Shown piece after piece: positions 26,110 through 51,219 of a stretch of DNA of 64,000 bases. The stretch is from Chloroflexota bacterium (GTDB taxonomy: Bacteria; Chloroflexota; Dehalococcoidia; UBA2247; RBG-13-53-26). The notes beneath the pieces are model-generated. The model searched no databases, was not told where the DNA came from, and saw only the letters and a list, made by a program, of their open reading frames with translations. How positions within the stretch are numbered: the stretch's first letter is position 1; each line of letters opens with the position of its first letter. The DNA lies in the NCBI GenBank assembly GCA_016876035.1, contig VGOE01000001.1, positions 27,264 to 91,263 of the forward strand, written 5' to 3'. A program made the translations under genes and the position numbers.

Positions 26110-26154
26110 TGGTAGCGGGGGTTGGATTTGAACCAACGGCCTTCGGGTTATGGG
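26110..26154 (-). repeat. 45-nt copy of the 3' half of the tRNA-Met at 48153-48227 (CCA end through the anticodon loop). It is a putative attL direct repeat.
   Basis: 26110-26154 is identical to 48153-48197 (tggtagcgggggttggatttgaaccaacggccttcgggttatggg). The sequences diverge afterwards. Confidence 0.75.
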
Positions 26155-31704: not shown

Positions 31705-31705
31705 C

Positions 31706-32641
31706 TCACCACTCCCTGCATATTCGCTGAAATGGGCAACGCTCGCAAATCTTCACATGCCGGGCATAGCTAAAATCCCGAATATCTGCCACGCCTGTAT
31801 CAGGATCAACCATGAGTGCGCTAATGTTTTCTACGCTTCTCCTGATAACTGCTAACCGGTTCCACTTAGCTTCGGGGTCCAACGTAAAAGCTTCAACCTG
31901 CGGAGTCTCCAAGTTAACGGCATACGCTGTGGTGTCCCTAAGCTCAATACTCAAAGCCAGGTGTGGCCAAAGAAGGTAGCACTCCATTTGCCCCGAATAA
32001 CTTCGTGCATCAGACTTCCCAGTCTTCCAGTCATAGATCGCAAATCGGCCATCGCTGTTTCGCACAGCAAGATCTACCTTAACTGTGACCTTTGTAGTCT
32101 CGAAGTCAAATGCTGTAGCCCCTGGCCCAAATGTCGGGGGCTCAATCCAAACCCGGTTAGCGGTGGCTAGAATCTGCGGAATCCTCAGGGTGTCCCGAAT
32201 GTCACCGAAATTGTCCAAGCAGGTTCTGATCGTAGTTAGTATCCTGCTGAAAGTATCAAGCGGTAGCTGGATTCCATATTCATGCTCAAAGATAGCACCA
32301 AACTCCTCTCCTGCTCTCGTTGGCGCAACTTGGCGGTAGAGTTTCCTCTCAGAAAAATTCCACTGGCGCTCTGCGAGGTCCGCAGCCTTTTCTCGAAGGT
32401 CTTCCACCGACCAACGATGCCCGTTTGCCAGTTCCTTCAGCGACTTTGCAACAGTGGTATGCAAAAGGTCACCGACCCACGCCGAGAGTGTTTTTAGTTG
32501 CCGCAGAATCGCCACCTCTTTCAACAAAGGCTTCCTTGAATTGCGACGCGCTCCAGCCAAGTAATGAAAGAATAGCTGTCGCTCGCAGACTTCTAGCAGG
32601 TTGCCTTTCGAATACGACCATGATCGCTTTGTCGAGTCCAT
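31706..32641 (-). CDS. Cas4/AddB-like PD-(D/E)xK nuclease with a 4-Cys iron-sulfur cluster motif. The start is taken at the internal Met because the longer ORF overlaps the upstream gene.
   Basis: The PD-(D/E)xK core is VKVDLAV...GRFAIYDWKTGK. C-terminal CERCPFQRIC (C-x2-C-x5-C) plus an N-terminal Cys (EVCERQ) match the Cas4/AddB Fe-S arrangement. It lies immediately upstream of pAgo. Confidence 0.7.
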   Translation of the reverse strand: MDSTKRSWSYSKGNLLEVCERQLFFHYLAGARRNSRKPLLKEVAILRQLKTLSAWVGDLLHTTVAKSLKELANGHRWSVEDLREKAADLAERQWNFSERKLYRQVAPTRAGEEFGAIFEHEYGIQLPLDTFSRILTTIRTCLDNFGDIRDTLRIPQILATANRVWIEPPTFGPGATAFDFETTKVTVKVDLAVRNSDGRFAIYDWKTGKSDARSYSGQMECYLLWPHLALSIELRDTTAYAVNLETPQVEAFTLDPEAKWNRLAVIRRSVENISALMVDPDTGVADIRDFSYARHVKICERCPFQRICREW

Positions 32642-32654
32642 AACGCTTGCTGTC

Positions 32655-33044
32655 TTACGGAATATTGAAGGGACTGTAGAAATGTCCCACGCCCTGCGGC
32701 TCCAGGCGGTTGCCGAACAGGGGCCGCAGGCGAATCTCCTGGTTGCGCCAGTACATCTTGGGCTCCACATCCATAGTCAGCTTGTCCACGGGCAAGAGAA
32801 CGACCGGACTGCGGCGCAAGAGCCTCTCACCAGCCTCATAGAGGATATCGTGGAGTGGCTTCAAGTCACTCATTGTTGCCATGATTCGGTCCAGCCCTGC
32901 AACCTTAACTCGCCTGGGCAAAGTGTCCCTGGCTTGAAGACGTTGAAGGAACTGAACAATGCTCATTACTTCTGAGTCATCCTCGTAGCGCTGGCCAATA
33001 AGCCCCCTTTCCACCAGGTTGTAGCCGGCCTTCAATCCTTCCAT
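32655..33044 (-). CDS. Hypothetical protein (129 aa) within the defence operon.
   Basis: It lies 10 nt downstream of the methyltransferase stop and on the same strand. Confidence 0.4.
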   Translation of the reverse strand: MEGLKAGYNLVERGLIGQRYEDDSEVMSIVQFLQRLQARDTLPRRVKVAGLDRIMATMSDLKPLHDILYEAGERLLRRSPVVLLPVDKLTMDVEPKMYWRNQEIRLRPLFGNRLEPQGVGHFYSPFNIP

Positions 33045-35685: not shown

Positions 35686-35694
35686 GGCGACTTC

Positions 35695-36030
35695 TCACTT
35701 CTTCGTTGGCGGGTGGAAATGTGTCTCAGAGCGAAGGGACGTTGGAAAATCACATTTCCCACACCAGAGGTCCCGATCAAGATTTTTGTGGCGTGTCCAT
35801 CCATGGTGGTCTTCAAGCGTTCTCTGAACCTGACGCTGCCAATTGCCGCCTTTGTGGAGAATGTTGGCAGGCACAAGCGAACCAAATTCCGGATAGACAA
35901 CGGGGTTGTTGCTCGCTGCAAGCTGTTGAGCGCAGTTCAGAACCGCTGAGTCACAGGCAGGGCAAAGGGGCCATGGCCAACTGCTATAGTCGGGCTTCGT
36001 ATGGTTAGAATTCCAACTGCATGAGCGCAT
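35695..36030 (-). CDS. Hypothetical zinc-ribbon protein (111 aa, 4 Cys) in the defence operon.
   Basis: Two Cys pairs are present (CPACDSAV...CGKCDF). It lies 9 nt upstream of the methyltransferase start. Confidence 0.35.
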   Translation of the reverse strand: MRSCSWNSNHTKPDYSSWPWPLCPACDSAVLNCAQQLAASNNPVVYPEFGSLVPANILHKGGNWQRQVQRTLEDHHGWTRHKNLDRDLWCGKCDFPTSLRSETHFHPPTKK

Positions 36031-36061
36031 TTTACTTCCCTCGCAACATTCAGCTTCCCCT

Positions 36062-36289
36062 TCATCTCCTGCAGAGAGACAAACTCCCCTTCTTGCCCTC
36101 GGCCCAGGCTTTACGGGACCTCTTTACCTGGTGCGCCAGTTCCTCGCCGCCCAGGATCTCCGCCGTTGCCTCCCACTCATCCCTCTCCCTGAGGTAGGCG
36201 GCAAAGTCAGCCACCGCCTTAACCCTGTCCTCTGAAAGGGACTTGACCTCTTCCAGTAACTTGCCCTTGTAGCCACCAGCCTTAGCCAC
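36062..36289 (-). CDS. Small hypothetical protein (75 aa, GTG start) in the defence operon.
   Basis: A GTG start is preceded by AGAGGGGGTGA. It lies 6 nt after the PglZ-domain gene stop. Confidence 0.4.
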   Translation of the reverse strand: MAKAGGYKGKLLEEVKSLSEDRVKAVADFAAYLRERDEWEATAEILGGEELAHQVKRSRKAWAEGKKGSLSLCRR

Positions 36290-36295
36290 GATTCA

Positions 36296-37243
36296 TCACC
36301 CCCTCTTTAGCCTTATCACAGGTACCAGACACTCCATGAGTGAAATGCCGCCATGTGCCACATCCGACTGCTTGCCAGGGGCACTCCAGTAGTAGCGCCC
36401 CCGGACATAGCACCCCTTATCATCGAACAGAACATAGGTATGGTCTTTGGGAAGAGCACGCAGCACCTCAAACTCTCCGGCATTCGGGCCATCGAATGTG
36501 ATCCCCCGCTGGGCACCAAAGAGCTTCAGAAGCACCTTGCGATTGGAGACGGGGGCGTGCCAGAAAAGGGCAGCGGACTGGGCATATACATAGCCATGGT
36601 CAGAGGTGAGCACCACCTCCTTCGTTTCCAGCATGTTTAGAATCTTGAGCAGAGCCTCCTCCGTCCGTTGCAAAGCAAAGGAAGGGGTAACCCCCTTGCC
36701 TTTCATGGGATGCATCAGTTCGTCTGGAAAGGAAAGCCATACCAACGCCTTTGGTCCCTGCAGGAAGATCGGAACATCGCCCGACCTGATGGAGCGGAAG
36801 GTGAATCCCTGCCACTTCTTGGGCATAGCTGCCGCTCCTGCTACTCCGAAGACATCACGGAAGAAAGCCCGTGTCGTCGATGGCACCCCTGAGTAGGCAT
36901 AGGAGTATTGTGCAGGGTCGAAGCCCTTTTCTTTGAGCCGGGGCATTAGCCAGTTGGCCTCTCTGAGGGAGAGGCCGTCCAGCACAACGATGGACGCCTC
37001 CAGGCAACTGAACTCGGCTGTCCTGTTCTGGGATCTGGCCCGCTCCAACAGCAAATCGTAGAGTTCAAAGTAGGTATCCCTTATGAACTCCTCCAGATTA
37101 TTGGTCTCGCGCTCTTGCTGGACATAGAAAGCATCCACATCGCCTGAGTCACCTGATGTCCATATATCATTTAGAGCCTTGAACAAAGGGCCGACAGGAT
37201 CGTCCTGGGTGAGAAGCTGTGTGACAAGGCTATTCAGATTCAT
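36296..37243 (-). CDS. Stand-alone PglZ-domain protein (alkaline-phosphatase superfamily fold).
   Basis: Motifs IVVLDGLSLRE, GVPSTTRAFF and VVLTSDHGYVY resemble the PglZ/BrxZ metal-binding and catalytic Ser/Thr signatures. The start overlaps the ATPase stop by 14 nt. Confidence 0.6.
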   Translation of the reverse strand: MNLNSLVTQLLTQDDPVGPLFKALNDIWTSGDSGDVDAFYVQQERETNNLEEFIRDTYFELYDLLLERARSQNRTAEFSCLEASIVVLDGLSLREANWLMPRLKEKGFDPAQYSYAYSGVPSTTRAFFRDVFGVAGAAAMPKKWQGFTFRSIRSGDVPIFLQGPKALVWLSFPDELMHPMKGKGVTPSFALQRTEEALLKILNMLETKEVVLTSDHGYVYAQSAALFWHAPVSNRKVLLKLFGAQRGITFDGPNAGEFEVLRALPKDHTYVLFDDKGCYVRGRYYWSAPGKQSDVAHGGISLMECLVPVIRLKRG

Positions 37244-39821
37244 GCTTCTCCACCTCCAGGGTGGCCTTGATGATGCCCTCTGAGGGAACGGGCAGCTTGC
37301 CCAGGAGCTTCATCAGCTCGTCCTTCGCCATAGCCCGAGGCATCCATAGCTTTACAGACAGCTCAACCTGGCTGACGCCTTTCTTGCCCTTGAAGTCCGC
37401 CAGCAATTCTTCTAACTTGCTCGCCTCTTCCATCGCCTTACCTCTGAGAGATATGGTGACAGAAGCAACTTTGTCACCCGAGGAGAGACGTCCCTCTAAC
37501 TCAGTGACCATCTTGAAGGGAGTAGTATGTTCCTGGCTAGCAAGGGGCACAGTCTCCCTTTCGGCGACCTTTTTGTCCTCTTTCACCGCCGTGCCGCCTT
37601 CGGGCGTCCGCTCATACTCTGTAGTTTCCCCAGGCACTACCTTCTCCGGCTCTTTCTCGGCGGTAATGGCCACCCCTCCGGGAACCGATGGCCCATACTG
37701 CGCCAGATAAAGCCGCATCTCGTCCAGGACTTCGTGGCACGGGTTGCTCTTATCATAGAGGCGCTTGTCCAACTCCAATATGATCTCACCGCTGACGCAG
37801 AGGCTGCGTACTCGGGAGGGCAAGGTTTCAGCATCCAGCAAAAGAGGCCTCCCCACTTGCTTCATGAACATACTTTTCAGCTCATCAAACCTTCTACCTT
37901 GCCCCTGGGCTTCGGCCAACTCCGTTATAATGGCATCGTCCACCACCTCGGTGCTAGCAGCGCTCCTGACCTTGTCGGCGATGTCTTCGGTGCTTAGCTC
38001 ACAGGCGACCGGGCGGAAATATACCTGGGCACCTTTGCCACTGGCCTTCATCCACTCTCCATAAGCCCGCTGCACCCGGTTTCGCAGTTCATCCTCTTGT
38101 TGCTGCTGGTATTCACTCAGGGCTTTCTTCTTGTCTGCCCCTACCTCTGTTTCCATAGCTTGGCAAACCAGGATGCGCTGGGCCCTAATTAGCAGCTCTT
38201 CGCTTTGAGCAAGATCGCCCCCGGTCTTGGGACGAACCAGGATAACCATATTTCGCCATTCTCTGCCATGAAAGATCTTGTCCCGGATGTCATCGCTCTC
38301 CACAAACTTGGTTGACACTAATATCCTAAGCTGGCGGGTATCAGGAATTTCGCTATCAAGTGGGTAGATACTGACGTCCATACCCTTGAGGAAGCTCTTA
38401 ATAACCTCAGCCAGCTTGCTCTGAGCAGCCTTGGAGTCTTCCGCAAGCTGTCTTTCAGCCCGGGCATTGATACTAATGGGGAGGTTTTCCTCGTCTCTAA
38501 ACACATAACGACCATTCAGCGGATGGACAAACCAAGCATTCAGAGCACCTTGCCTAAGCTTGGATAGCACAAGGTTTATCTGATTTATGTCCCTCTGCAG
38601 AGTAAGATTTCCCAGGACTATTTGCCCCTCATTTGCACCGGGCTGGCCCGCCACAAAGGAACGAAGAAGAATTGTGGACAGAATGCCCCTAGCCAGCTTT
38701 TCGTCTTTGGTCCGCTTGATGTCGCTGAGACACCGTTCCACCAGCACCGGCTCCAGCTTAAAGAGGTCATCCTGAACCTCTTCATTTTCTGGGTTTATGT
38801 CGGAGGAGAGTAACAGATCTCTCTCTGCAGCGCAGTCACGGAGGACACTAGAGAGGAGATAGAGGATGCCACGGGTATTCTGATAATTTCGGGAAGCACC
38901 AAAGCTCTGGAAAAGAACCTCCAAAAGCTCGGGGTGAAGGGGGTAGTATTTGAGCATTTGGGAACGATAAGCATCGATAGGCTCGACAACAGTTTCCAGG
39001 GAACCCTTGATGTCTGCATAGCGCTTCACATAGGCTTCCACCACTCTCTTGGCCTTGGCCTTGTCGATGCTTTGGAACAGCCTGAACCGAATGACCTCCG
39101 CCTTGTCCTCCGAAGCTCCCAGGTCTTGAATGAAGACCTGCTCCCTGCCCAGCCTTCCCAAGATTCCTTCACTCCTACCGTATAGCGAAATCAAGACAAT
39201 CAACTTGCAGTCGCTATCTGAGCTTACCTCTGAAAGGACCTGGAGGAAGTTGAGGTTGCGAGTTTTCCTTACAGGGTCGGCGATGGCCTCATACCAGGAT
39301 TCGAGCTCATCCATGATAATGACAACTGGTTCCTTGCCGATGGCTTCTTTGAACTGGGTGATGGTCGGATAGTCACGAATCTGGCCAAGCATGGAGGCCT
39401 TCCCTAGCCCCTTGAACACGGGCTCCCATAAGAACTCTGGATTCCCCTCTTCCCCCTCCATCAACTGCAACACAACTGGCATAGCCTGTGGTAATTGAAC
39501 TTTGATAGACCACCTGTCCTGCCAGGCTTTGGCCACATTAGGAGCCGCAAACAGGTGGTATAGCACAAGCAGACAGTGCGACTTGCCGGTGCCATAGCCA
39601 CCGGCAAAGATGAAAGTGCCATGAGCTCTTCTACCCGAGAGCCGCTCGGTTATTGCTTTTAGCGCCTGGGAGAGTGCATGGGAAGGGTAGGTTATGGAAA
39701 GGATGCGATCGGCTGAGGCTTCTGGCTTGGTTGGGATAGTCACATTATATAACCTTACTATCCCGAAGATGTCGCCTTTCTGGGCTTCATCAGAAAGTGA
39801 AACAACATCGTTGATTAACAT
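37230..39821 (-). CDS. Large P-loop ATPase of the BrxC/PglY-like family (DUF499-like).
   Basis: Walker A is FAGGYGTGKSHCLL. Walker B is VVIIMDELESW. It is the first gene of the operon, with about 480 nt of non-coding DNA upstream. The protein is 863 aa. Confidence 0.7.
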   Translation of the reverse strand: MLINDVVSLSDEAQKGDIFGIVRLYNVTIPTKPEASADRILSITYPSHALSQALKAITERLSGRRAHGTFIFAGGYGTGKSHCLLVLYHLFAAPNVAKAWQDRWSIKVQLPQAMPVVLQLMEGEEGNPEFLWEPVFKGLGKASMLGQIRDYPTITQFKEAIGKEPVVIIMDELESWYEAIADPVRKTRNLNFLQVLSEVSSDSDCKLIVLISLYGRSEGILGRLGREQVFIQDLGASEDKAEVIRFRLFQSIDKAKAKRVVEAYVKRYADIKGSLETVVEPIDAYRSQMLKYYPLHPELLEVLFQSFGASRNYQNTRGILYLLSSVLRDCAAERDLLLSSDINPENEEVQDDLFKLEPVLVERCLSDIKRTKDEKLARGILSTILLRSFVAGQPGANEGQIVLGNLTLQRDINQINLVLSKLRQGALNAWFVHPLNGRYVFRDEENLPISINARAERQLAEDSKAAQSKLAEVIKSFLKGMDVSIYPLDSEIPDTRQLRILVSTKFVESDDIRDKIFHGREWRNMVILVRPKTGGDLAQSEELLIRAQRILVCQAMETEVGADKKKALSEYQQQQEDELRNRVQRAYGEWMKASGKGAQVYFRPVACELSTEDIADKVRSAASTEVVDDAIITELAEAQGQGRRFDELKSMFMKQVGRPLLLDAETLPSRVRSLCVSGEIILELDKRLYDKSNPCHEVLDEMRLYLAQYGPSVPGGVAITAEKEPEKVVPGETTEYERTPEGGTAVKEDKKVAERETVPLASQEHTTPFKMVTELEGRLSSGDKVASVTISLRGKAMEEASKLEELLADFKGKKGVSQVELSVKLWMPRAMAKDELMKLLGKLPVPSEGIIKATLEVEKHESE

Positions 39822-40986: not shown

Positions 40987-42132
40987 CTACCGCTCGTAGG
41001 AATAGCCCTTCACGTAGTTGTGGATGGTCGGTTTGCTCACGCCCATCATCTTGGCAATCTGCCCCATGGATAGCCCGCCATGGTGAAGCTCCCTTGCCTT
41101 CTGGATACGCTCCTCAAGGGTCATCCTCTTGGGCAGCTTCATTGCCGGAGGTTCTCCGCCGGCTGCAAAGGCATGGCTTAGTTTGGCGGTCCAGAATGTG
41201 GGCAAATCATTCTCCAGAAGCCCCATGAAGTCGGCATCTGGAGAGTAAACGTAGCTCCACCTTCTTCTTTCGCCCTTCACTGTGCCAAAGGCTTGTTTTG
41301 CCTGGGTCGCAATTCTAGCCAGTTCAGGCCTATCAAACTCTAGCTGAAGCATCCCCAAATCCTTGAATACCACCACGTTGGCAGAGCTAGCGATATTTCT
41401 ATCCACTTGGCGGGCTTCCTGGCTGACGAAGACAAGCGTCTGCTCCCTTTGGCGAGATAGATTTAGGATGCGGGACATCTCTCTGCTTCTAGCTGCTAGG
41501 CTCTCCCTGGAGTGATACCGCAGATAGGCTTCGTCCACAAGCACGATAGACTTCTGGGGGATGTCTTCGAAGCTTTCGGCAATGCCTATCCAGTCTGGGA
41601 GAAGCTTCTGGCCTTGCTTTGGAAGCCCAAGAACGTAAGGTGTCAGCACATATCTGCATAACTCCAACAGCCGATAGCCCAGGGCGGACTTACCACTGCC
41701 CCGCTTCCCTAAGATTAGCACCACGGAGGGGTGGGCGATAACCTCCCGCCATCTAGCATCGACCTCAATCTGGGCTTCAGTTCTAAGTGCTGGCGAAGTA
41801 ATGGTCTCGGTTTCCCCTGCTGGCTTGTTATCAATCTGTTTGAAGGCAAGTGACCAGGCTTCAAAAAGCCGGCGTTTACTTTCCTGCATCAATACCTCTT
41901 GGCACTGTCGCCATAGCTCTACCAGGAATGGCTCCAAGAAGGGTGAAGCAATGGCAAAAGTAATGCCTGCCTGGAGTCGCCTGCCTTGAGGGGCGACAGC
42001 GAGTCCCAATAGGCCCCACAGAGCAGCGGAGTAATAACCGTTGTCTGTCGGCTGATTACTGACCATTCCAATATGTCGCCGTCTCAAATGTGACATAATA
42101 GCCTCTGGGAGCCATTGTAAACGAAAAGTCAT
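40987..42132 (-). CDS. P-loop NTPase with a C-terminal helix-turn-helix. It may be a replication or partition-associated ATPase of the mobile element.
   Basis: Walker A is LILGKRGSGKSALG. Walker B is IVLVDEAYL. The C-terminal HTH is GLSMGQIAKMMGVSKPTIHNYV. Confidence 0.55.
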   Translation of the reverse strand: MTFRLQWLPEAIMSHLRRRHIGMVSNQPTDNGYYSAALWGLLGLAVAPQGRRLQAGITFAIASPFLEPFLVELWRQCQEVLMQESKRRLFEAWSLAFKQIDNKPAGETETITSPALRTEAQIEVDARWREVIAHPSVVLILGKRGSGKSALGYRLLELCRYVLTPYVLGLPKQGQKLLPDWIGIAESFEDIPQKSIVLVDEAYLRYHSRESLAARSREMSRILNLSRQREQTLVFVSQEARQVDRNIASSANVVVFKDLGMLQLEFDRPELARIATQAKQAFGTVKGERRRWSYVYSPDADFMGLLENDLPTFWTAKLSHAFAAGGEPPAMKLPKRMTLEERIQKARELHHGGLSMGQIAKMMGVSKPTIHNYVKGYSYER

Positions 42133-42359: not shown

Positions 42360-43040
42360 CTACCACCCAAAGTCCACCCCTTGTTGTACCCGCAGAGATT
42401 CCTCAGCTTGCAGGGTCTTGAAATACCTTAGTGTCATCCTGGCTGTTGTGTGCCGGAGCTGGTCCTGGACAGCCTTCGGATTGCCAGTCACCCTCAGTCT
42501 TTCTATAGCCCCGCTATGCCTCAGGATATGCACGGCCCCCACATGGTCGGGCTTAGTGACTCCGGCTTTAGCCATGGCTGCGTCAACAATCTGAAAGGCC
42601 CTGGTTCGGGTTATGGGAAAGAACTGCTCTTCGATATTGAGGCCGTGGCGGTAGGCATAGGCTTGCAGTTGCGCTGCAAGGCTAGATGATATGGCTGCTA
42701 TCCCGGGTTTCTTACCCTTACCGAAGATCTCCAGGTGCCAGCCGGTAGGATCCTGCTTTATATCCCTCGGCCTGACCCTTAATGCCTCGCTGATCCGCAG
42801 ACAAGCGTCAAAGAGTGTCTGTACCAACAGCCTGTCACGATCCTGGTGTCTGCCAGAACTGCCGGCGGCCTCAGCTATGGCCGTCACCTCAGCCAACCCC
42901 AGGTGCGGTACATAACCACTCTCAGCCACCTGTGCCCTGACAATTGCTTGCCTCTGAGCACTTTTGTTTAGCCTTGGAAGCCTTGGGGTCACCGCCACCA
43001 GGTTTGTTGACGACTGTGGTCTATCGCCACTGGCTGTCAT
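42360..43040 (-). CDS. Small tyrosine recombinase of the phage-integrase family (resolvase or Xer-like).
   Basis: The C-terminal catalytic region reads HILRHSGAIERL...LRHTTARMTLRYF (HxxR...Y). The protein is 226 aa. Confidence 0.65.
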   Translation of the reverse strand: MTASGDRPQSSTNLVAVTPRLPRLNKSAQRQAIVRAQVAESGYVPHLGLAEVTAIAEAAGSSGRHQDRDRLLVQTLFDACLRISEALRVRPRDIKQDPTGWHLEIFGKGKKPGIAAISSSLAAQLQAYAYRHGLNIEEQFFPITRTRAFQIVDAAMAKAGVTKPDHVGAVHILRHSGAIERLRVTGNPKAVQDQLRHTTARMTLRYFKTLQAEESLRVQQGVDFGW

Positions 43041-43267
43041 TGCTTAACCTTCTTGTCCCTTTTGATAACGTCCCTCAGTCTGAGCCTATGGGTTTTCAGG
43101 ATGCTGTATATATATCCCCGGCTACACCCTAACTCTTGGGCCGCTACCGTTACGCTTCCACACTTTCTCAGCTTGTCAAGAATGTTTTTGACAGGCACGT
43201 CCAGCCGTTTCCGTCCTAGACCACTTACCACCACTGTTTTGCCACAATGGGGACATTGGACGTTCAT
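43037..43267 (-). CDS. Small DNA-binding protein with an N-terminal Zn ribbon and a C-terminal HTH.
   Basis: The Zn ribbon is CPHCGK. The HTH is GSVTVAAQELGCSRGYIYSIL. It overlaps the recombinase start by 4 nt. Confidence 0.5.
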   Translation of the reverse strand: MNVQCPHCGKTVVVSGLGRKRLDVPVKNILDKLRKCGSVTVAAQELGCSRGYIYSILKTHRLRLRDVIKRDKKVKQ

Positions 43268-43299
43268 TGGTCACCCCTCAAAACAGAATTTATTTTCGT

Positions 43300-43480
43300 T
43301 CTTTACTGACACTTCATGCTTACCTAGCTTCTATATATACACTGACACTACTCTTGACACTTCACTGACACTTCACTGACAGTTTACTGACAGTTTGAAC
43401 TGTCAGTGTTTGGACTGACAATTGTCGGGGTATTCTTTAGCTTCAGTTCGTGCCTAAGTGTCAGTATGTCAGTAGTGTCA
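43300..43480. repeat. Iteron-like cluster of at least 9 direct and inverted copies of an ACTGACA/TGTCAGT core. It is a putative origin or integrase/repressor binding array.
   Basis: CACTTCACTGACA occurs twice. GTTTACTGACA, GTTTGAACTGTCAG and GGACTGACAAT are present. Downstream copies include GTGTCAGTATGTCAGTAGTGTCA. The cluster lies between the DUF3987-like gene and the HTH gene. Confidence 0.6.
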
Positions 43481-43486
43481 TGCATT

Positions 43487-44722
43487 TTAGGTGGCCTGCA
43501 GCATCCTCTTCTTGCCCTCGTAGTGGTTTCTCAGTACCCCTAACCTGAGTAACGGCTCCACTGTTGTCTCCAGTTCTTTGGCGGCCAGATTCAGATTACG
43601 ATAGACATCGCGATACGGAACTAGACCCCCGGCACTCTTTACATATTCAACTATCCGCATCTCCTTCTGTTTGCTCTGCGACTGTCCGAAGTTGGCGAAT
43701 ACTTCAGTAACACCTGCTTCGAGGTACCCCCCTACCGCAATAGCCAGTTCTAGGTGATCTGCTGATATAACTTTTGACATGGCATCTGCGGCATAGAGTA
43801 GAGCTACCTTCCAGATGAAGTCCTGGACCCTGACAATGAGCGTAGGTATTAAGCCCGGCTGTTGGCAACGCCAGTAATACTGGCTGTAGTATCGCTCAAA
43901 GAGCGCCTCTGCCTCACTTGATATGGTTATCTCTCCATCAGGCACACCATCAGCCCATTGGCGGATCTCATTCAACCGTTCGACTACCTTTATGCGCTTC
44001 TCCGGGTCAACCTTTGGTGGATTGGGCATAGGGTCCTTTGGCAGCCCATAAAAGTAACACCAACGATTCGCAAAGCCGCCGTATATGTCCCGCTCGGTAA
44101 GTGCCTTTTGTAGCCAATCCTGTGTTGTACCAGCCGTGATAGACAGGAAAGGCTCTTTGGCTGGCTTGATGGGTTTTTGACGCACTTGTGCATTGAACAC
44201 GTCTGATGAATCATATAACTCGTTGAGGGCTGGAATAATGTTGGCCACTGACTCCTGTTTCGCTTTTGCCAACAAAGAATAGAACTCGCCAAGCTCTATG
44301 AGTCTAACCTTCCGCTCTCCGGCTAAATCGTCCAGCACCCCTTCGGAACTTCGAATGCCCCGAAGCACCTTGAATGGCGGACTTCCCTCATCTTCTGGGG
44401 ACAGGTGAAGCCTGTCTAATACGTCTCGGCCTCTTAACCATGTCGTATCTTTCCGAGTTATTCCACTTCTACCTACGAGACACGTATAGAAGTTTGGGTA
44501 AAGCTTACGTGCATGATAGACGAAAAGCCTTCGGCCTAGGGTACACCCAAAGACTTGAAGGAAAGTAGCATAGTGGAAAGCGTCCGCTGCTTCGGTAGTA
44601 TTCGCCACCATGTCTCGATAGTCTGCGAACAAGCCCCGCCATGAGATTTCTGGTAATTCTGGATTAGCGGTGATGGTGATTGGCCTTGAGATTGTCTTTT
44701 CCGTAATCGTAATCTCTGGCAT
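43487..44722 (-). CDS. Primase-associated replication protein, possibly a DUF3987-like helicase-loader domain.
   Basis: The 411 aa lie immediately downstream of the primase gene with a 2-nt gap. No Walker motif was seen, so the assignment is tentative. Confidence 0.4.
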   Translation of the reverse strand: MPEITITEKTISRPITITANPELPEISWRGLFADYRDMVANTTEAADAFHYATFLQVFGCTLGRRLFVYHARKLYPNFYTCLVGRSGITRKDTTWLRGRDVLDRLHLSPEDEGSPPFKVLRGIRSSEGVLDDLAGERKVRLIELGEFYSLLAKAKQESVANIIPALNELYDSSDVFNAQVRQKPIKPAKEPFLSITAGTTQDWLQKALTERDIYGGFANRWCYFYGLPKDPMPNPPKVDPEKRIKVVERLNEIRQWADGVPDGEITISSEAEALFERYYSQYYWRCQQPGLIPTLIVRVQDFIWKVALLYAADAMSKVISADHLELAIAVGGYLEAGVTEVFANFGQSQSKQKEMRIVEYVKSAGGLVPYRDVYRNLNLAAKELETTVEPLLRLGVLRNHYEGKKRMLQAT

Positions 44723-44724
44723 GG

Positions 44725-45672
44725 CTAGTCCCCCGTCAGCAGATCATCGAGTCCTTTGAACCTAGTATCCCAGTCCGCTTCAAAGGTGCGTAAACCGAAC
44801 CTAATGAGGAAAGCGGCCAGCGTGTCCAAGTGCAGACGTACGGTGGTGTTCCGGTTTTTATCTTCATCGAAGGCGATAACGATGCGTTTCGGCCTCAGTT
44901 GACGGACTATCGGTATCACGCCTCGCCAGTTCCCTACGCCTGGTACTGCCAATACCAGATGGCCCAACTTCAAAGCAGCGATGTCAGCTTTGAGTGGCCC
45001 TTCCGTAATCCACATTTCGCTATCATTGGAGACTAGCCCTGCCACATGAACCGGCGCTCCTGGCGAACACCCGGCGTTAAACCCTTTGCTTGATAGCCAC
45101 TTATATTTGCCGCCGCCTACCTCATCGCAACGTACTTGAAGCCCGACGATGCGCTTCTTTATATCTCGCACAGGTATCAGGATACCGACTGGCCCTGCCA
45201 ACTGACATTGTCCAGCTTCAAGGTAAAACCCGGGCACTCCTGCCAGTCTAACACTCCTAGTTTCAAGTCTTATGATCAACTTGCCTCGTCCGGTGGGCGG
45301 TAATGTTCTATAGCATAGGCTGTCAATCTGTGCGTCTGTTAAACCCCGGCGCTGCAAGCTAGCTCGGTGTATGGCTGATAGTTGTAACTCTTCTAGCAAA
45401 GCGTTATACGTCTTGTCTAACACGTCGGGCGCTGCTTTCGGTGTCTGTTTAGGGTCTGGTCTAAACGTAGGTAGTGGTGGCAATGGCATGGTTGCGTCCA
45501 GCTTGTGAAGCCAACCTGCGCCTTTGTTTCCGGCTGGCTTGTCGCTCTCAATCCTGGCACATATCGCGGCTTTTCCATCCCCGGATACGAGACACCAATC
45601 CGGCTTGCCGCAGACCGGACATGGGTTGTGCCGGTTAACCCTCACCCATTTTGAAACTATGGCGGCAGTCAT
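44725..45672 (-). CDS. DNA primase with an N-terminal zinc finger and a Toprim domain (P4-alpha or DnaG-like).
   Basis: The Zn finger is CPVCGKPDWC...AAIC. The Toprim acidic motifs are ITEGPLKADIAAL and RIVIAFDEDKN. Confidence 0.65.
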   Translation of the reverse strand: MTAAIVSKWVRVNRHNPCPVCGKPDWCLVSGDGKAAICARIESDKPAGNKGAGWLHKLDATMPLPPLPTFRPDPKQTPKAAPDVLDKTYNALLEELQLSAIHRASLQRRGLTDAQIDSLCYRTLPPTGRGKLIIRLETRSVRLAGVPGFYLEAGQCQLAGPVGILIPVRDIKKRIVGLQVRCDEVGGGKYKWLSSKGFNAGCSPGAPVHVAGLVSNDSEMWITEGPLKADIAALKLGHLVLAVPGVGNWRGVIPIVRQLRPKRIVIAFDEDKNRNTTVRLHLDTLAAFLIRFGLRTFEADWDTRFKGLDDLLTGD

Positions 45673-45920
45673 TAGCGGCCTACTTTTTCACTGCCCTGAT
45701 TAGCGCTATATCGCCTGAAGGTATCCTGTCTGTTGTGGTCTGGCACCAGGGTGGTCCGCCGCCGCTGACGGCACGGCTTGCAACGCTTTGGCTCAGATAA
45801 TGACTTGCTATGGAAATAGACTTGCTCTCCAGCCGTGAAAGTGAACTCCCGTCCACAATCACAGCAACGGAGAACCTTATCCCGGAAGTGAGGCTTTTTG
45901 CCGCCCGGCCTTTGCGTCAT
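45672..45920 (-). CDS. Small zinc-finger protein (82 aa).
   Basis: The motif is CCDCGREF...CKPCRQRR. Confidence 0.35.
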   Translation of the reverse strand: MTQRPGGKKPHFRDKVLRCCDCGREFTFTAGEQVYFHSKSLSEPKRCKPCRQRRRTTLVPDHNRQDTFRRYSANQGSEKVGR

Positions 45921-45951: not shown

Positions 45952-46155
45952 CTAATTGTTAGGCTTGCCAGCTTCAGCCAGCATTCGCTGAAGGGCGGCT
46001 TTAGGAATTACCAACCGCCGCTCCGATATTCGAATAACAGGTAGCTTCCCCTCCCGACACAAACTGTATGCAGTTGCCCTTGAAATCCCTAGAGCATCCG
46101 CCGCCTCGACTACCGTCATTGTCAGGCGTTCGCTCTCCTTCTTAGACATTCTCAC
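45952..46155 (-). CDS. xis: Excisionase/AlpA-family HTH DNA-binding protein.
   Basis: LTMTVVEAADALGISRATAYSLCREGKLPVIRISERRLVIPKAAL is a typical MerR-like excisionase HTH. Confidence 0.6.
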   Translation of the reverse strand: MRMSKKESERLTMTVVEAADALGISRATAYSLCREGKLPVIRISERRLVIPKAALQRMLAEAGKPNN

Positions 46156-46267
46156 AACCTCCTACTTGACAACTATCTCTAGTAGGAATTATAATTCTTA
46201 GTAACAGGACTGACAATGCCTAATGTAGGGACTAAGAGAAGCGACTGTTAGGAATAGAGGGATTAAG

Positions 46268-46939
46268 ATGGCAGTCAAGCGCAAACGAGCCAAGATTACA
46301 CATAAAGAAGAAACCATGATTCTTGACTACTCACGTAGGTTCCGCAAGTTGGGACGAACCCAATTGGCTGAAAAGATTCAGGCAGAAGTCAAATGGTCGG
46401 GCAAGCCTCCTGAAATAGAGGTATTGGAGAAAAAAATATCGAAGTATAGAAAAATTAATGACCCCGAGGAGGAACCCTGGGATATGTCTAAACTAGACAA
46501 GTATCCCATTCCGCCGGAAGCGCTACCCTCAGTGATACTGTGCTACGTCTATCGACTGGAACATGGCGACACCTTACTTACTGTCCGGGAAGCCAAGTGG
46601 GTTTCACGCATCTATGCTATTTGGAAAGACAAGGCAGAAGAGTATGTAAAAGCGCTCGATTATATCGCTTCGTTTCTCGCCCTGGGTGAAGTCAGCATGG
46701 AATTTATCGAAAGATCAAGCACCAGGAACAGAGATTTGGCAACTTTGCATAGCAACCTTCGCATGATGAACGTCATATGGCTTTACGGACAAATCACTAG
46801 AAAGCCGCCGAGTGAAGAGTTAGTAAGATGGATTAAGAACAAAATGGACGAGTGGCCGGAAGAGCTGAAGGCCCAATTTCCAGATTGGTTTAGGGAGGCA
46901 GATAATGAGAGGTCACATAATCAAGCGATACAAGAATAG
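46268..46939 (+). CDS. Hypothetical protein (223 aa) upstream of the integrase.
   Basis: An ORF with an RBS-like GGGATTAAG precedes the ATG. No motif was recognised. Confidence 0.45.
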   Translation: MAVKRKRAKITHKEETMILDYSRRFRKLGRTQLAEKIQAEVKWSGKPPEIEVLEKKISKYRKINDPEEEPWDMSKLDKYPIPPEALPSVILCYVYRLEHGDTLLTVREAKWVSRIYAIWKDKAEEYVKALDYIASFLALGEVSMEFIERSSTRNRDLATLHSNLRMMNVIWLYGQITRKPPSEELVRWIKNKMDEWPEELKAQFPDWFREADNERSHNQAIQE

Positions 46940-48082
46940 CTACACGATTGTCCTAACCCTCGGCTATGACCCGGCCACTGGCAAGCGTAGGCAGCAATGG
47001 GTTAGCGTCAAAGGGACTAAGAAGGATGCGGAGAAGCGCCTGGCGGAGCTCCTGCACCAGCTCGATACCGGCACCTTCATGAAGCCTGGCAAGACTACCC
47101 TGGCCGAATACCTGGAGCGATGGTTGAAGGACTACGCATGGCCTAATCTGTCCCCGAGGACCGCCGAGGGGTATGAACACATCGTCAGGCGTCACCTTAT
47201 CCCGGGTCTCGGCTCGATATCTCTGACACAGTTGAAGCCCGAACATCTCCAGCGCTACTACTCCGAGAAGCTATCAAGCGGCCGGTGTGATGGTAGGGGG
47301 GACTGAGCGCGAGAACAGTACGACATCATCACGTTACCCTGCATGATGCCCTGCAAACGGCTGTCAAGTGGGGATTGCTGGTCAGAAATCCGGCTGACGC
47401 AGTAGCCACCCCCCGCTTTCAGCCTCACGAGATGCACACTCTTTCCGAAGAAGATATTTACACTTTCCTTGAAGCCGCGAAGAAGACACCCTACTATGCC
47501 TTATTCTATCTGGCACTTTTCACCGGTATGAGGCGGTCTGAACTTCTGGCTCTGCAATGGTGTGACGTCGATCTGGCATTAGGTCAGGTATATGTTGCGC
47601 GTACTCTTCACCACCTGCGAAATGGAGGAATTGCCTTCAGAGCACCTAAAACAGCCAAAGGCCGCCGGACCATAGCTCTTCCACCGTCAGCTTGTATTGC
47701 TCTCAGAGCGCATAGGGAAGCACAGGAGGCAAGGCGAACCATGCTGGAGATCCCGCTGAGAGAGGATGAACTGGTTTTCTCTCAACTGGACGGTAGACCA
47801 CTACTTCCTGATACGGTAACCCATGCTTGGGTTAAACTGGTAAGGCGCACCGGCCTTCAGGGAATCCGATTACACGATGCCAGACACACCCATGCTTCCT
47901 TGATGCTGAAACAGGGTGTCCATCCCAAGATAGTTCAAGAGAGATTAGGCCATGCCAGCATACAGATAACCCTTGATACCTACTCCCATGTGGCCCCCGG
48001 GCTCCAAGCGGCTGCCGCTGTCCGATTTGACGAACTGCTGGCTCCCAAGCGTGACAAAGAGGTAGTTGAAAAAGTTGGTTAG
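46905..48082 (+). pseudogene. int: Tyrosine integrase (phage-integrase family) split into two frames by a roughly 14-nt insertion with stops near 47285-47300.
   Basis: The N-terminal SAM-like/core-binding part (46905..47306) reads ...EYLERWLKDYAW...LKPEHLQRYYSEKLSSGR. The catalytic part (47375..48082) reads RHHHVTLHDALQTAVKWGLLVRNPAD...LRHLRNG...HDARHTHASLML...LGHASIQITLDTYSHV (R..HxxR..Y). The continuation GGLSARTV is in frame 2 after tgtgatggtagggg. Confidence 0.6.
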
Positions 48083-48152: not shown

Positions 48153-48227
48153 TGGTAGCGGGGGTTGGATTTGAACCAACGGCCTTCGGGTTATGGGCCC
48201 GACGAGCTACCACTGCTCCACCCCGCG
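48153..48227 (-). tRNA. tRNA-Met (anticodon CAU), initiator-type.
   Basis: The RNA reads CGCGGGGTGGAGCAGTGGTAGCTCGTCGGGCCCATAACCCGAAGGCCGTTGGTTCAAATCCAACCCCCGCTACCA. Positions 1:72 are mismatched (C:U). Three G:C pairs close the anticodon stem. The anticodon loop is CCCAUAA. A CCA end is encoded. Confidence 0.85.

Positions 48228-48254: not shown

Positions 48255-51219
<2,965 letters not shown>

What the first reader, a model, noticed from the sequence alone, without database searches (positions are those of the whole stretch)
43300..43480. Dense array of TGACA/TGTCA iteron-like repeats next to the primase/replication genes
At least nine direct and inverted copies of an ACTGACA core occur in about 180 nt. 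They include two tandem 13-mers (CACTTCACTGACA) and an inverted pair (ACTGACAGTTTGAACTGTCAGT). The array sits between the primase-associated gene and the HTH/recombinase genes. This placement is typical of a replication origin, or of an operator bound by the adjacent HTH or recombinase proteins.
Basis: seen in the sequence. Interest (0 to 1): 0.5.

Follow-up and report, generated by a model that had tools for sequence, protein, structure and literature searches.

The report
Replication origin of a defence island
The repeat cluster is real and is most likely the replication origin of a 22-kb integrated mobile island: about a dozen short protein-binding sites placed just after the island's own helicase gene, a known design (staphylococcal pathogenicity islands) found here in Chloroflexota-type bacteria.

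Summary
Nine exact ACTGACA copies plus three degenerate ones lie in 43305-43480. The other seven copies in the 64 kb are at chance level.

The array fills the gap directly 3' of a DUF3987 gene (43487-44722, minus strand). Its predicted fold is an MCM-like AAA+ helicase with a C-terminal winged helix. A Toprim primase gene precedes it. Both sit in a 22-kb island integrated in tRNA-Met.

In 62 of 63 related loci the same about 190-nt architecture follows the helicase stop codon. The repeat unit is (A)AGTG + 5 variable nt + AA. The 5-mer differs between lineages, with at least 10 classes, and all copies change together.

The class tracks the helicase's winged helix, notably residues 375 and 378. 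It does not track the ATPase core, the primase or the downstream 76-aa HTH protein. That HTH gene is often absent, and its recognition helix is identical across three classes.

Best reading: an iteron origin read by a self-loading initiator-helicase, as in SaPI/PICI elements. The operator reading for the HTH or recombinase is not supported. Binding and replication are untested. This is a new member of a known kind, of moderate interest.

The parts
43281..43486 (.). Whole intergenic origin-like region: iteron array plus conserved spacers plus A/T-rich tail. It is 40% GC against 52% for the island.
43459..43480 (-). Proximal set. Three sites lie 7-30 nt after the helicase stop codon and read xCTGACA on the gene (minus) strand. 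Cores are at 43476-43480 (degenerate), 43467-43473 and 43459-43465.
43428..43458 (-). Spacer 1 (family consensus CTTACGCACGAAnTGAAGCTAAAAAAT). It is conserved across iteron classes and holds AGCTA box 1 at 43438-43442.
43414..43427 (.). Palindromic site pair 1 (ACTGACAATTGTCG; family consensus CTGACAATTGTCAG).
43386..43407 (.). Palindromic site pair 2 (ACTGACAGTTTGAACTGTCAGT).
   Evidence: I7
43341..43392 (-). Distal tandem set. Five sites read AAGTGTCAGTR on the gene strand, opposite in orientation to the proximal set. Cores are at 43386, 43375, 43364, 43355 (degenerate) and 43341. The first three have an 11-nt period.
43315..43340 (-). Spacer 2 (family consensus AAAGCTAAGTGAGCGTG). It holds AGCTA box 2 (43325-43329) and a TATATATA run (43332-43339).
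43304..43314 (-). Solitary last site (AAGTGTCAGTA on the gene strand), present at about +180 nt after the stop codon in nearly all related loci.
43281..43303 (.). A/T-rich tail (70-80% AT) before the ribosome-binding site of the next gene. It is a candidate melting region.
43487..44722 (-). DUF3987 protein, 411 aa. The predicted fold is an MCM-like AAA+ core plus a C-terminal winged helix. It is the proposed initiator-helicase (Rep).
43490..43687 (-). Codons 346-411 of Rep, the winged-helix domain. Model helices are 349-364, 370-376 and 381-393, followed by a basic hairpin. R375 and N378 co-vary with the iteron 5-mer.
44725..45672 (-). Toprim-type primase (DUF3854), 315 aa, immediately upstream of Rep.
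45672..45920 (-). Treble-clef zinc-finger protein (zf_Tbcl), 82 aa, in the same operon.
45952..46155 (-). HTH_17 (AlpA/Xis-like) protein, 67 aa, first gene of the operon.
46905..48082 (+). Tyrosine integrase (arm-binding, SAM-like and catalytic domains), split by a frameshift in a G-run near 47296-47301.
48153..48197 (.). att repeat inside the 3' part of tRNA-Met (48153-48227, minus strand).
26110..26154 (.). Second copy of the identical 45-nt att repeat, marking the far end of the 22-kb island.
43037..43267 (-). 76-aa zinc-ribbon/HTH protein downstream of the array. It is a neighbour, not the predicted binder.
42360..43040 (-). Small Xer-like tyrosine recombinase, 226 aa. It is a neighbour and is not conserved next to the array.

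Best explanation
The array is the vegetative replication origin (ori) of a 22-kb integrative island (26110-48197).

Proposed mechanism:
- About 12 iterons of the form (A)AGTG-TCAGT-AA lie directly 3' of the island's rep gene.
- They form a proximal set of three in one orientation, two palindromic pairs, and a distal set of five tandem copies plus one solitary copy in the opposite orientation.
- The C-terminal winged-helix domain of the DUF3987 protein, an MCM-like AAA+ helicase, binds these sites sequence-specifically.
- After excision, oppositely oriented Rep assemblies load themselves on the DNA and melt it, probably in the A/T-rich stretches around the last iteron.
- The adjacent Toprim (DUF3854) primase then primes synthesis.
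- The variable 5-nt half of the iteron and winged-helix residues 375/378 (plus the wing) set replicon specificity.

Shown here:
- the repeat anatomy;
- conservation of that anatomy in 62 related loci;
- concerted change of the core;
- concentration of class-associated substitutions in the winged helix;
- the predicted fold.

Inferred: binding, melting, helicase self-loading, priming and replication itself.
For: 1. Enrichment. Nine exact cores lie in 169 nt against about 0.02 expected.

2. Conserved position and architecture. In 62 of 63 related loci with a readable 3' flank, an array starts within about 15 nt of the DUF3987 stop codon.
- Site positions are near-constant, for example 15-, 24-, 32-, 68-, 76+, 90-, 105+, 115+, 138+, 149+, 186+.
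- Arrays with the TGACA core carry 10-13 copies against 0.4-1 expected.

3. Concerted core change. The variable 5-mer is TCAGT, TCATA, TCACA, TCACC, TCAGA, TCGGT, TCTGT, GTAGT, GTAGC, TAGTA or AGCGT in different lineages.
- All copies change together, in both orientations.
- The spacers stay conserved.
- This is what a trans-acting sequence reader with shifting specificity predicts.

4. The class tracks the Rep winged helix.
- YRNLNLS goes with TCAGT, YHNLNLS with GTAGT, and YHSLRLS with GTAGC.
- HRNLNFSS goes with TCGGT.
- RRLS[MI]S goes with TCAG(T/A).
- xxxNMS goes with TCATA, in three different backgrounds.
- RRLK[MV]S goes with TCACC.
- xxLHL[SG] goes with TCACA, in three backgrounds.
- H375 against R375 is the only difference shared by all GTAGN-versus-TCAGT comparisons within the short-wing type.

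5. Contrast score (difference in different-class pairs minus same-class pairs).
- Mean 0.33 in the winged helix, with 11 of 66 columns at or above 0.6.
- Mean 0.08 in the Rep core (0 of 334 columns) and 0.07 in the primase (1 of 315 columns).
- L002 and L006 are 88% identical in the core but 48% in the winged helix, so the module swaps together with the ori.

7. Homologue architectures. Some relatives are fused to PrimPol + PriCT or to DnaB_N. Distant phage homologues are annotated as helicase or primase next to DNA polymerase I.

8. Literature.
- SaPI/PICI Reps bind 5-6-nt iterons through a C-terminal winged-helix domain.
- In those elements, 6-12 iterons lie immediately 3' of rep, in two opposed sets (PMC9371898, PMC6092414).
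- A PriCT-DUF3987 protein is an active helicase on a pAgo-carrying, tRNA-integrated element (PMC11724360).
Against: - No experiment. Binding, melting and replication are all inferred.
- Linkage. The winged-helix coding segment lies within 200 nt of the array, so co-inheritance by recombination could produce part of the association. Recurrence of the same residue-base pairings in different winged-helix backgrounds argues against linkage alone but does not exclude it.
- No AT-rich centre. SaPI/PICI origins have a pronounced AT-rich centre between the two iteron sets, and this array does not. The AT-richest stretches (43331-43350 and 43281-43310) flank the last iteron, and the family-average AT profile is nearly flat at 0.55-0.66.
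- Deviant P-loop. The Rep P-loop reads GRSGxTRKD rather than GxxxxGK[ST], so ATPase competence is unverified.
- Moderate model confidence. The AF2 model has mean pLDDT 71.5.
- Possibly immobile copy. The integrase is frameshifted here, so this particular copy may no longer excise.
- No autonomous relatives. None were found among PLSDB plasmids or IMG/VR contigs, so autonomous replication of this lineage has never been observed.
Confidence: 0.75

Rival explanations
1. Rep-binding sites with a mainly regulatory role. They would serve autorepression, read-through control of the downstream genes, or copy-number and incompatibility 'handcuffing', while the true origin lies elsewhere in the island.
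For: - The same covariation and adjacency evidence shows only that the winged helix reads the sites, not that replication starts there.
- The region lacks a clear AT-rich centre.
- Iterons in plasmids also serve copy control (PMC4980987, found; only its title and abstract opening were seen, so this point rests on my general knowledge).
Against: - No second cluster of the class-specific repeat exists anywhere in the 22-kb island or in 313 kb of related loci. There is no alternative iteron origin to regulate.
- The array lies downstream of rep, not at its promoter.
- The promoter scan finds nothing in the region.
- In the closest characterised systems the array at this position is the ori itself (PMC6092414, PMC9371898).
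Confidence: 0.1
2. Operator or promoter region of the downstream operon (76-aa HTH, small tyrosine recombinase, ATPase-HTH), bound by the HTH protein or the recombinase.
For: - In the window and about 20 related loci, an HTH76 homologue starts 220-280 nt after the rep stop, directly after the array.
- The core TGACA resembles the -35 hexamer TTGACA.
Against: - In many loci the gene after the array is unrelated (L002, L003, L005, L007, L008, L020), is an integrase (L035, L042, L044), or the HTH lies 2 kb away (L006, L015).
- A recombinase homologue is seen in only five loci.
- The HTH recognition helix CSRAYIYKVLK is identical in loci of classes GTAGT, TCACC and TCATA.
- No sigma-70-like promoter was found.
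- Other classes (TACCA, CGCTCACC) have no resemblance to a -35 hexamer.
Confidence: 0.05
3. Partition centromere, like parC of plasmid R1. As I recall, parC has two sets of five 11-bp repeats bound by a small DNA-binding protein. Here the array would serve the downstream ATPase.
For: The unit has an 11-nt period, there are about 12 copies, and a 381-aa P-loop/HTH protein lies 1.1 kb downstream.
Against: - The downstream gene set is not conserved with the array.
- No ParM, ParA or ParR family hit was found.
- Covariation points to the upstream Rep winged helix.
Confidence: 0.04
4. A structured RNA, or a transcription terminator of the pri-rep operon formed by the inverted repeats.
For: Inverted repeats lie just after a stop codon.
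Against: - No Rfam match up to E = 1.
- No terminator-like site on the gene strand.
- Direct tandem copies change in concert with the inverted ones, which base pairing does not require.
Confidence: 0.03
5. Chance clustering, or a generic dispersed genomic repeat.
For: None beyond the shortness of the motif.
Against: - Poisson P is about 1e-21 for the cluster.
- Copies outside the array are at chance.
- The architecture is conserved in 62 loci.
Confidence: 0.01

Closest known systems
SaPI/PICI replication module (pri - rep - ori) of phage-inducible chromosomal islands (PMC9371898, PMC6092414)
   Same: - Gene order: int / xis(alpA) - primase - initiator-helicase - ori - accessory genes, on an island integrated at a specific site.
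- The ori lies immediately 3' of the rep ORF.
- There are 6-12 short iterons (5-6 nt specific core) in two sets of opposite orientation.
- Rep is a hexameric-type AAA+ helicase. SaPIbov1-type Rep is SF6/MCM-like.
- The C-terminal winged helix sets ori specificity, and several allelic specificities exist.
   Different: - Rep belongs to DUF3987 and shows no detectable sequence similarity to any PDB chain, SaPI Reps included.
- The primase is a separate DUF3854 Toprim protein.
- There is no marked AT-rich centre.
- The layout is asymmetric (3 sites, 2 palindromes, 5 + 1 sites), with a constant AGTG half-site and two conserved AGCTA boxes.
- The host lineage is Chloroflexota/Dehalococcoidia.
- No packaging or capsid-remodelling genes were recognised, and no helper phage is known. 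The cargo is anti-phage defence.
pAgo-associated integrative element with AgaPP PrimPol and the PriCT-DUF3987 helicase AgaPH (PMC11724360)
   Same: The element is integrated at a tRNA and carries an integrase, a primase, a DUF3987 helicase and a long pAgo with nuclease partners among defence genes. Here the pAgo plus Cas4-like nuclease lie at 29440-32770. That DUF3987 protein was shown to be an ATP-dependent helicase that binds its primase.
   Different: - That paper describes no origin or iterons: a text search found 0 occurrences of 'iteron'.
- Its primase is an AEP PrimPol, whereas this one is Toprim/DUF3854.
- Some relatives of the window's Rep do carry PrimPol/PriCT fusions.
Satellite phage P4 alpha protein with ori and crr (from my own knowledge; also discussed in PMC6092414)
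   Same: A primase-helicase has a C-terminal winged-helix origin-binding domain that reads short repeated sites present in direct and inverted orientation.
   Different: - P4 needs a second repeat cluster (crr) several kb away. No second cluster exists here.
- P4 alpha is an SF3/D5-type helicase fused to its primase.
- The P4 ori is not at the 3' end of the alpha gene.
Iteron plasmids (RepA/pi/TrfA type origins; PMC4980987)
   Same: Tandem, helically phased repeats are bound by a winged-helix initiator, and repeat sequence determines replicon specificity and incompatibility.
   Different: - Plasmid iterons are 17-22 bp direct repeats next to DnaA boxes and an AT-rich DUE.
- Their initiator (WH1-WH2 Rep) is not a helicase and recruits host DnaB.
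SCCmec Cch MCM-like helicase (PDB 5dgk)

Membership tests
SaPI/PICI-type rep-adjacent iteron origin | The origin lies in the non-coding region immediately 3' of the replication-initiator gene. | tested here: met
   The array starts 7 nt after the DUF3987 stop codon in the window. The same holds in 62 of 63 related loci.
SaPI/PICI-type rep-adjacent iteron origin | Six to twelve short (penta- or hexanucleotide core) iterons. | tested here: met
   About 12 sites, 9 of them exact, with a 5-nt variable core inside an 11-nt unit.
SaPI/PICI-type rep-adjacent iteron origin | Two iteron sets pointing in opposite directions. | tested here: met
   The proximal three sites are in one orientation and the distal six in the other, with two palindromic pairs between them.
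SaPI/PICI-type rep-adjacent iteron origin | A central AT-rich region between the two sets (presumed melting site). | tested here: inconclusive
   Spacer 1 between the sets is only 50-65% AT. The AT-richest stretches (70-80%) flank the last iteron. The family-average profile is nearly flat.
SaPI/PICI-type rep-adjacent iteron origin | The initiator is a helicase whose C-terminal winged-helix domain determines iteron specificity. | tested here: met
   By prediction and covariation only: MCM-like fold plus a winged helix, and class-associated substitutions concentrated in residues 346-411. Biochemical binding was not tested.
SaPI/PICI-type rep-adjacent iteron origin | A pri-rep-ori segment drives autonomous replication, and Rep binds and melts the ori. 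| not testable with these tools
   This needs EMSA or footprinting and a plasmid-maintenance assay.
PICI (phage-inducible chromosomal island) as an element | Induction by a helper phage and packaging in helper capsids (terS, cos/pac, capsid-remodelling genes). | tested here: not met
   No packaging or morphogenesis family was recognised in the island ORFs scanned against Pfam and PADLOC. No PHROGs scan was run, and four ORFs (326, 146, 390 and 223 aa) matched nothing. The only terminase-type hit is the HTH of Terminase_5 in the 381-aa ATPase. No relatives were found in IMG/VR. Helper dependence itself is not testable here.
PICI (phage-inducible chromosomal island) as an element | Layout: int, xis/alpA, pri, rep, ori, then accessory genes, within specific att sites. 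| tested here: met
   The order is int, orf223, then HTH_17, zf, Toprim primase, DUF3987, array, then cargo. The island is bounded by identical 45-nt repeats at tRNA-Met.
DUF3987 (Pfam PF13148) helicase family | Match to the family profile at the curated threshold. | tested here: inconclusive
   The window protein scores 23.5 bits against a cutoff of 27. Most of its 60-75% identical homologues carry a precomputed PF13148 hit.
DUF3987 (Pfam PF13148) helicase family | Canonical Walker A/B motifs and ATP-dependent unwinding (PMC11724360). | tested here: inconclusive
   The topology is strand-loop-helix, but the loop reads GRSGxTRKD and the putative Walker B reads LIxLGE. Activity is not testable here.
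P4-type ori/crr system | A second cis-acting repeat cluster (crr) elsewhere in the element. | tested here: not met
   No second cluster in the island or in 313 kb of related loci.
Iteron-plasmid origin (RepA type) | 17-22-bp direct iterons, DnaA box(es), and a WH1-WH2 Rep that is not a helicase. | tested here: not met
   The unit is 11 nt with both orientations. No Rep_3/RepA-type hit was found among the neighbouring proteins. No plasmid relatives were found. DnaA boxes were not searched for with a tool.

The most novel reading that the evidence does not exclude
The array and its relatives may define an unrecognised lineage of PICI-like, self-replicating integrative islands in Chloroflexota/Dehalococcoidia. 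These islands ferry defence cargo (pAgo, Hma/BREX-like systems).

Their DUF3987 initiator-helicase and ori would have diversified into at least 10 mutually exclusive specificity (incompatibility) groups. The diversification would run through a very small recognition code: winged-helix positions 375 and 378 plus the wing, read against a 5-nt half-site.

A second, invariant AGCTA-box factor would be shared by all groups.

If true, the 1.5-kb rep-ori cassette would also be the first candidate replicon for building vectors in Dehalococcoidia. As far as I know, no plasmid is known for this group.
Probability: 0.45. Interest if true: 0.6.

Novelty: new member of a known kind. Interest (0 to 1): 0.42.

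Why it matters
- It assigns a concrete, testable origin and origin-binding domain to DUF3987 replicons. This helicase family is widespread on satellites and defence islands. The one biochemical study I read describes no origin for it (PMC11724360).
- It suggests that this pAgo/Hma-type defence island could amplify itself after excision.
- The natural series of at least 10 iteron classes, with matched winged-helix variants, is a ready-made data set for studying how initiator-origin specificity and incompatibility evolve.
- A compact pri-rep-ori cassette from Chloroflexota could seed replicating vectors for a phylum with few genetic tools.
- The design itself (iterons 3' of a self-loading helicase gene) is already established for SaPI/PICI elements, so the finding extends that design rather than overturning it.

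Tried and rejected
- Plain mutual information between alignment columns and iteron class was dominated by column entropy and phylogeny. I replaced it with a contrast of different-class against same-class pairs.
- Second repeat cluster or upstream operator: none found. The only lead was an 11-mer, GGACTGACAAT, shared between 43412 and the xis/orf223 promoter region at 46207. It is a lone copy, and class-specific 8-mers outside arrays are at chance in 44 loci.
- Rfam scan of 43150-43600 at E up to 1: nothing.
- Promoter and terminator scan: no promoter, and one weak terminator-like hairpin on the wrong strand.
- Relatives in IMG/VR viral contigs: none. Relatives in PLSDB plasmids: none.
- Sequence search of the PDB with the family profile: only a spurious hit at E = 0.15.
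- Generality to distant DUF3987 proteins:
  - E. coli CP4-57 YfjI has an AT-rich 3' flank with no evident iterons, and hhalign to it was uninformative.
  - In phages ReqiDocB7 and PaMx33 the homologue is followed directly by overlapping genes.
  - So the rep-ori adjacency is shown only for the Chloroflexota clade.
- L057 was first classed TCATA from a flank truncated at 119 nt. I treated that as unreliable.
- L030, L059 and L063 have frameshifted 3' ends, so my 'stop' fell inside their GGTAGT arrays.
Full report
**1. The observation**

- ACTGACA occurs 16 times in the window on both strands. Nine copies fall within 43305-43473. The other seven are scattered and match the shuffle expectation of about 7.
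- With three degenerate copies that keep only TGACA/TGTCR (43355, 43423, 43476), there are about 12 sites in 176 nt.
- One detail needs correcting. The two 'tandem 13-mers' overlap by 2 nt, so the real tandem period is 11 nt (43364, 43375, 43386).
- The inverted pair at 43386-43407 is exact.
- The bare 5-mer TGACA is not enriched window-wide. Matches to the 10-mer with up to 2 mismatches outside the array are at chance.

**2. Context**

The array fills the 219-nt gap between two minus-strand genes. Reading along the minus strand, the operon is:

| Position | Product |
|---|---|
| 45952-46155 | HTH_17 (AlpA/Xis-like) |
| 45672-45920 | treble-clef zinc finger |
| 44725-45672 | DUF3854 Toprim primase |
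| 43487-44722 | DUF3987 protein |
| 43268-43486 | the array |
| 43037-43267 | 76-aa zinc-ribbon/HTH protein |
| 42360-43040 | small Xer-like recombinase |
| 40987-42132 | P-loop/HTH protein |

- A tyrosine integrase (46905-48082) abuts tRNA-Met (48153-48227), which follows a 23S rRNA gene.
- The 3' 45 nt of the tRNA are repeated exactly at 26110-26154. This delimits a 22-kb integrated island.
- Its cargo is defensive. It carries a long pAgo with a Cas4-like nuclease, and a DUF1156/HmaB methylase with a PglZ-like protein and a DUF499/HmaC ATPase.

**3. The array belongs to the DUF3987 gene**

The DUF3987 protein has more than 170 homologues at 50-75% identity. Almost all come from Chloroflexota/Dehalococcoidia metagenome bins. 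Some are fused to PrimPol + PriCT or to DnaB_N.

I fetched 7 genome loci and 60 metagenome loci.
- In 63 of them the 3' flank is readable.
- In 62 of those, an array begins within about 15 nt of the stop codon.
- The exception, L067, is a partial match at 49% identity.

Site positions are nearly superimposable between loci: three sites in one orientation at about +15, +24 and +32; a palindromic pair near +68/+76; a second pair near +90/+105; tandem sites at an 11-nt period up to about +150; and a solitary site near +180-190.

Arrays with the TGACA core contain 10-13 copies, against 0.4-1.0 expected from the rest of each locus.

**4. The repeat core changes in concert**

The unit is (A)AGTG + 5 nt + AA. 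The 5-mer is TCAGT in the window. Elsewhere it is TCATA, TCACA, TCACC, TCAGA, TCGGT, TCTGT, GTAGT, GTAGC, TAGTA or AGCGT.

Within a locus, essentially all copies carry the same core, whether direct or inverted. Some arrays mix two close variants. The spacers between the site groups remain alignable across classes.

Concerted change of a dozen dispersed copies, with conserved spacers, is the signature of sites read by one trans-acting protein whose specificity has shifted. It is not what RNA pairing, promoter hexamers or chance would give.

**5. Which protein reads the sites**

Downstream genes:
- The gene after the array is not constant.
- A 76-aa HTH homologue follows directly in about 20 loci. 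It is absent, replaced by an integrase or unrelated genes, or 2 kb away in the others.
- The small recombinase is seen in five loci.
- The HTH recognition helix (CSRAYIYKVLK) is identical in loci of classes GTAGT, TCACC and TCATA.

Rep C-terminus: by contrast, the last 66 residues of the DUF3987 protein track the class.

| Winged-helix motif | Iteron 5-mer |
|---|---|
| YRNLNLS | TCAGT |
| YHNLNLS | GTAGT |
| YHSLRLS | GTAGC |
| HRNLNFSS | TCGGT |
| RRLS[MI]S | TCAG(T/A) |
| xxxNMS (three backgrounds) | TCATA |
| RRLK[MV]S | TCACC |
| xxLHL[SG] (three backgrounds) | TCACA |
| WHNLGLSS | AGCGT |

- Among short-wing proteins, H375 against R375 is the only substitution shared by every GTAGN-versus-TCAGT comparison.
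- Among long-wing proteins, position 378 (N, S or K) separates TCATA, TCAG(T/A) and TCACC.

Contrast score: I scored the frequency of a difference in different-class pairs minus same-class pairs.

| Region | Mean score | Columns at or above 0.6 |
|---|---|---|
| Rep residues 346-411 | 0.33 | 11 of 66 |
| Rep core | 0.08 | 0 of 334 |
| Primase | 0.07 | 1 of 315 |

L002 and L006 are 88% identical in the core but 48% in the C-terminal domain. The domain and its origin therefore move as a module.

Caveat: the domain is encoded within 200 nt of the array, so linkage contributes to the association. The recurrence of the same residue-base pairings in different backgrounds is the argument that linkage is not the whole story.

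**6. What the protein is**

- Model helices are 349-364, 370-376 and 381-393, followed by a basic hairpin. Residues 375/376 end helix 2, residue 378 sits in the turn, and residues 380-382 open helix 3. Wing positions 400-408 also score high. Base contact by these residues is inferred.
- The P-loop is deviant (GRSGxTRKD), so ATPase activity cannot be assumed.
- Sequence search of the PDB found nothing.
- Distant phage homologues (24-26% identity) are annotated as helicase or primase beside DNA polymerase I.

**7. Mechanism proposed**

After excision, Rep binds the two oppositely oriented iteron sets through its winged helix. It assembles on the DNA and opens it. The Toprim primase then primes synthesis.

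The likely melting region is the A/T-rich DNA around the last iteron: 43331-43350 and 43281-43310, at 70-80% AT. The whole intergenic region is 40% GC, against 52% for the island.

All of these steps are inferred by analogy.

**8. Comparison with known systems**

*SaPI/PICI.* The closest match is the SaPI/PICI replication module.
- There, Reps are self-loading helicases (SF3 or SF6/MCM-like) whose C-terminal winged-helix domain recognises penta- or hexanucleotide iterons.
- Six to twelve iterons lie immediately downstream of rep, in two opposed sets around an AT-rich region (PMC9371898).
- The same organisation holds in Gram-negative PICIs. [quoted passage not shown]
- The window's island has the PICI gene order.
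- It differs in several ways: no recognisable packaging genes, no marked AT-rich centre, an asymmetric site layout, and two invariant AGCTA boxes. The boxes sit at about +55 (24 of 56 arrays) and +160-170 (37 of 56), against chance rates of 0.07 and 0.12.

*DUF3987 literature.*
- The family was predicted to be a helicase with a C-terminal winged helix (PMC5862659).
- It was shown to be a 5'-to-3' helicase that binds its PrimPol on a pAgo-carrying, tRNA-integrated element (PMC11724360). No origin is described there.
- It serves as a marker gene of PICMI satellites (PMC10803314).

*Other systems.*
- P4 differs in needing a second cluster (crr), which is absent here.
- Iteron plasmids differ in repeat length and in having a non-helicase Rep.

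**9. Limits of generality**

- E. coli YfjI (CP4-57) has no obvious iterons in its 3' flank.
- Two phage homologues have no intergenic space after the gene.
- The rep-ori adjacency is therefore shown only for this Chloroflexota clade.
- No relatives occur in PLSDB or IMG/VR.

**10. Verdict**

- The 'origin' reading is well supported by comparative evidence: confidence is about 0.75 for origin and about 0.85 for 'sites read by the Rep winged helix'.
- The 'operator of the HTH or recombinase' reading is not supported.
- This is a new member of a known kind. It is of moderate interest, mainly because of the natural specificity series and the possible use as a replicon for Chloroflexota.

Noticed in passing
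window 26110-48197: A 22-kb integrated island bounded by a perfect 45-nt direct repeat (26110-26154 = 48153-48197). The repeat is the 3' part of tRNA-Met, which sits directly downstream of a 23S rRNA gene (48255-51219, minus strand). No 5S or 16S rRNA gene is present in the window.
   Followed up: partly
window 29440-32770: Long (PADLOC class II) prokaryotic Argonaute, 754 aa, followed by an Argonaute-associated Cas4-like PD-(D/E)XK nuclease, 354 aa. Together with the integrase, primase and DUF3987 helicase, this is the association reported for pAgo-carrying mobile elements (PMC11724360). Here the primase is Toprim rather than PrimPol.
   Followed up: partly
window 33055-39821: A second defence cluster: DUF1156/HmaB-like methyltransferase (876 aa), a short PglZ-like protein (315 aa), and a DUF499/HmaC-like ATPase (863 aa). 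All hits are far below the NCBIfam equivalog cutoffs, so this may be a divergent Hma/BREX-like hybrid.
   Followed up: no
window 47290-47380: The island's integrase is split into two ORFs (46905-47306 and 47375-48082) by a frameshift in a run of six G near 47296-47301. The homologue in L035 is in one frame. This is either a pseudogene, leaving the island immobilised, or a homopolymer assembly error.
   Followed up: partly
window 43325-43329 and 43438-43442; related loci at about +55 and +160-170 nt after the rep stop: An invariant AGCTA(A) box sits in each of the two spacers of the array. It is conserved regardless of iteron class (24 and 37 of 56 distinct arrays, against 0.07 and 0.12 expected by chance). 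It may be the site of a second, conserved factor. Its function is unexplained.
   Followed up: partly
window 46166-46217: A consensus sigma-70 promoter (TTGACA, 18 nt, TATAAT; + strand) lies in the divergent xis/orf223 region. It is followed by GGACTGACAAT, an 11-mer identical to 43412-43422 inside the array. A lone Rep site acting as an operator is conceivable, but no such extra copies recur in related loci.
   Followed up: partly
window 40987-42132: A 381-aa protein with a P-loop NTPase region and a C-terminal HTH. The HTH gives the only 'terminase' (Terminase_5, gpP-like) hit in the island. Its function is unknown, and it is not conserved next to the array in relatives.
   Followed up: no
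L002 vs L006 (and L018 vs L006), Rep proteins: The Rep cores are 87-88% identical but the C-terminal winged helices only 45-48%. There are two wing types: short (NHYEGKKRMLEA) and long (NSYQKTDRGRQVRRYEAV). This indicates modular exchange of the winged-helix-plus-ori cassette between otherwise close replicons.
   Followed up: partly
L035 5355-5620 and L006/L010 arrays: Some arrays mix two core variants: TCGGT with TCAGT in L035, and TCATA with TCAGT in the L006 group. These could be intermediates in a specificity shift, or origins read with relaxed specificity.
   Followed up: no
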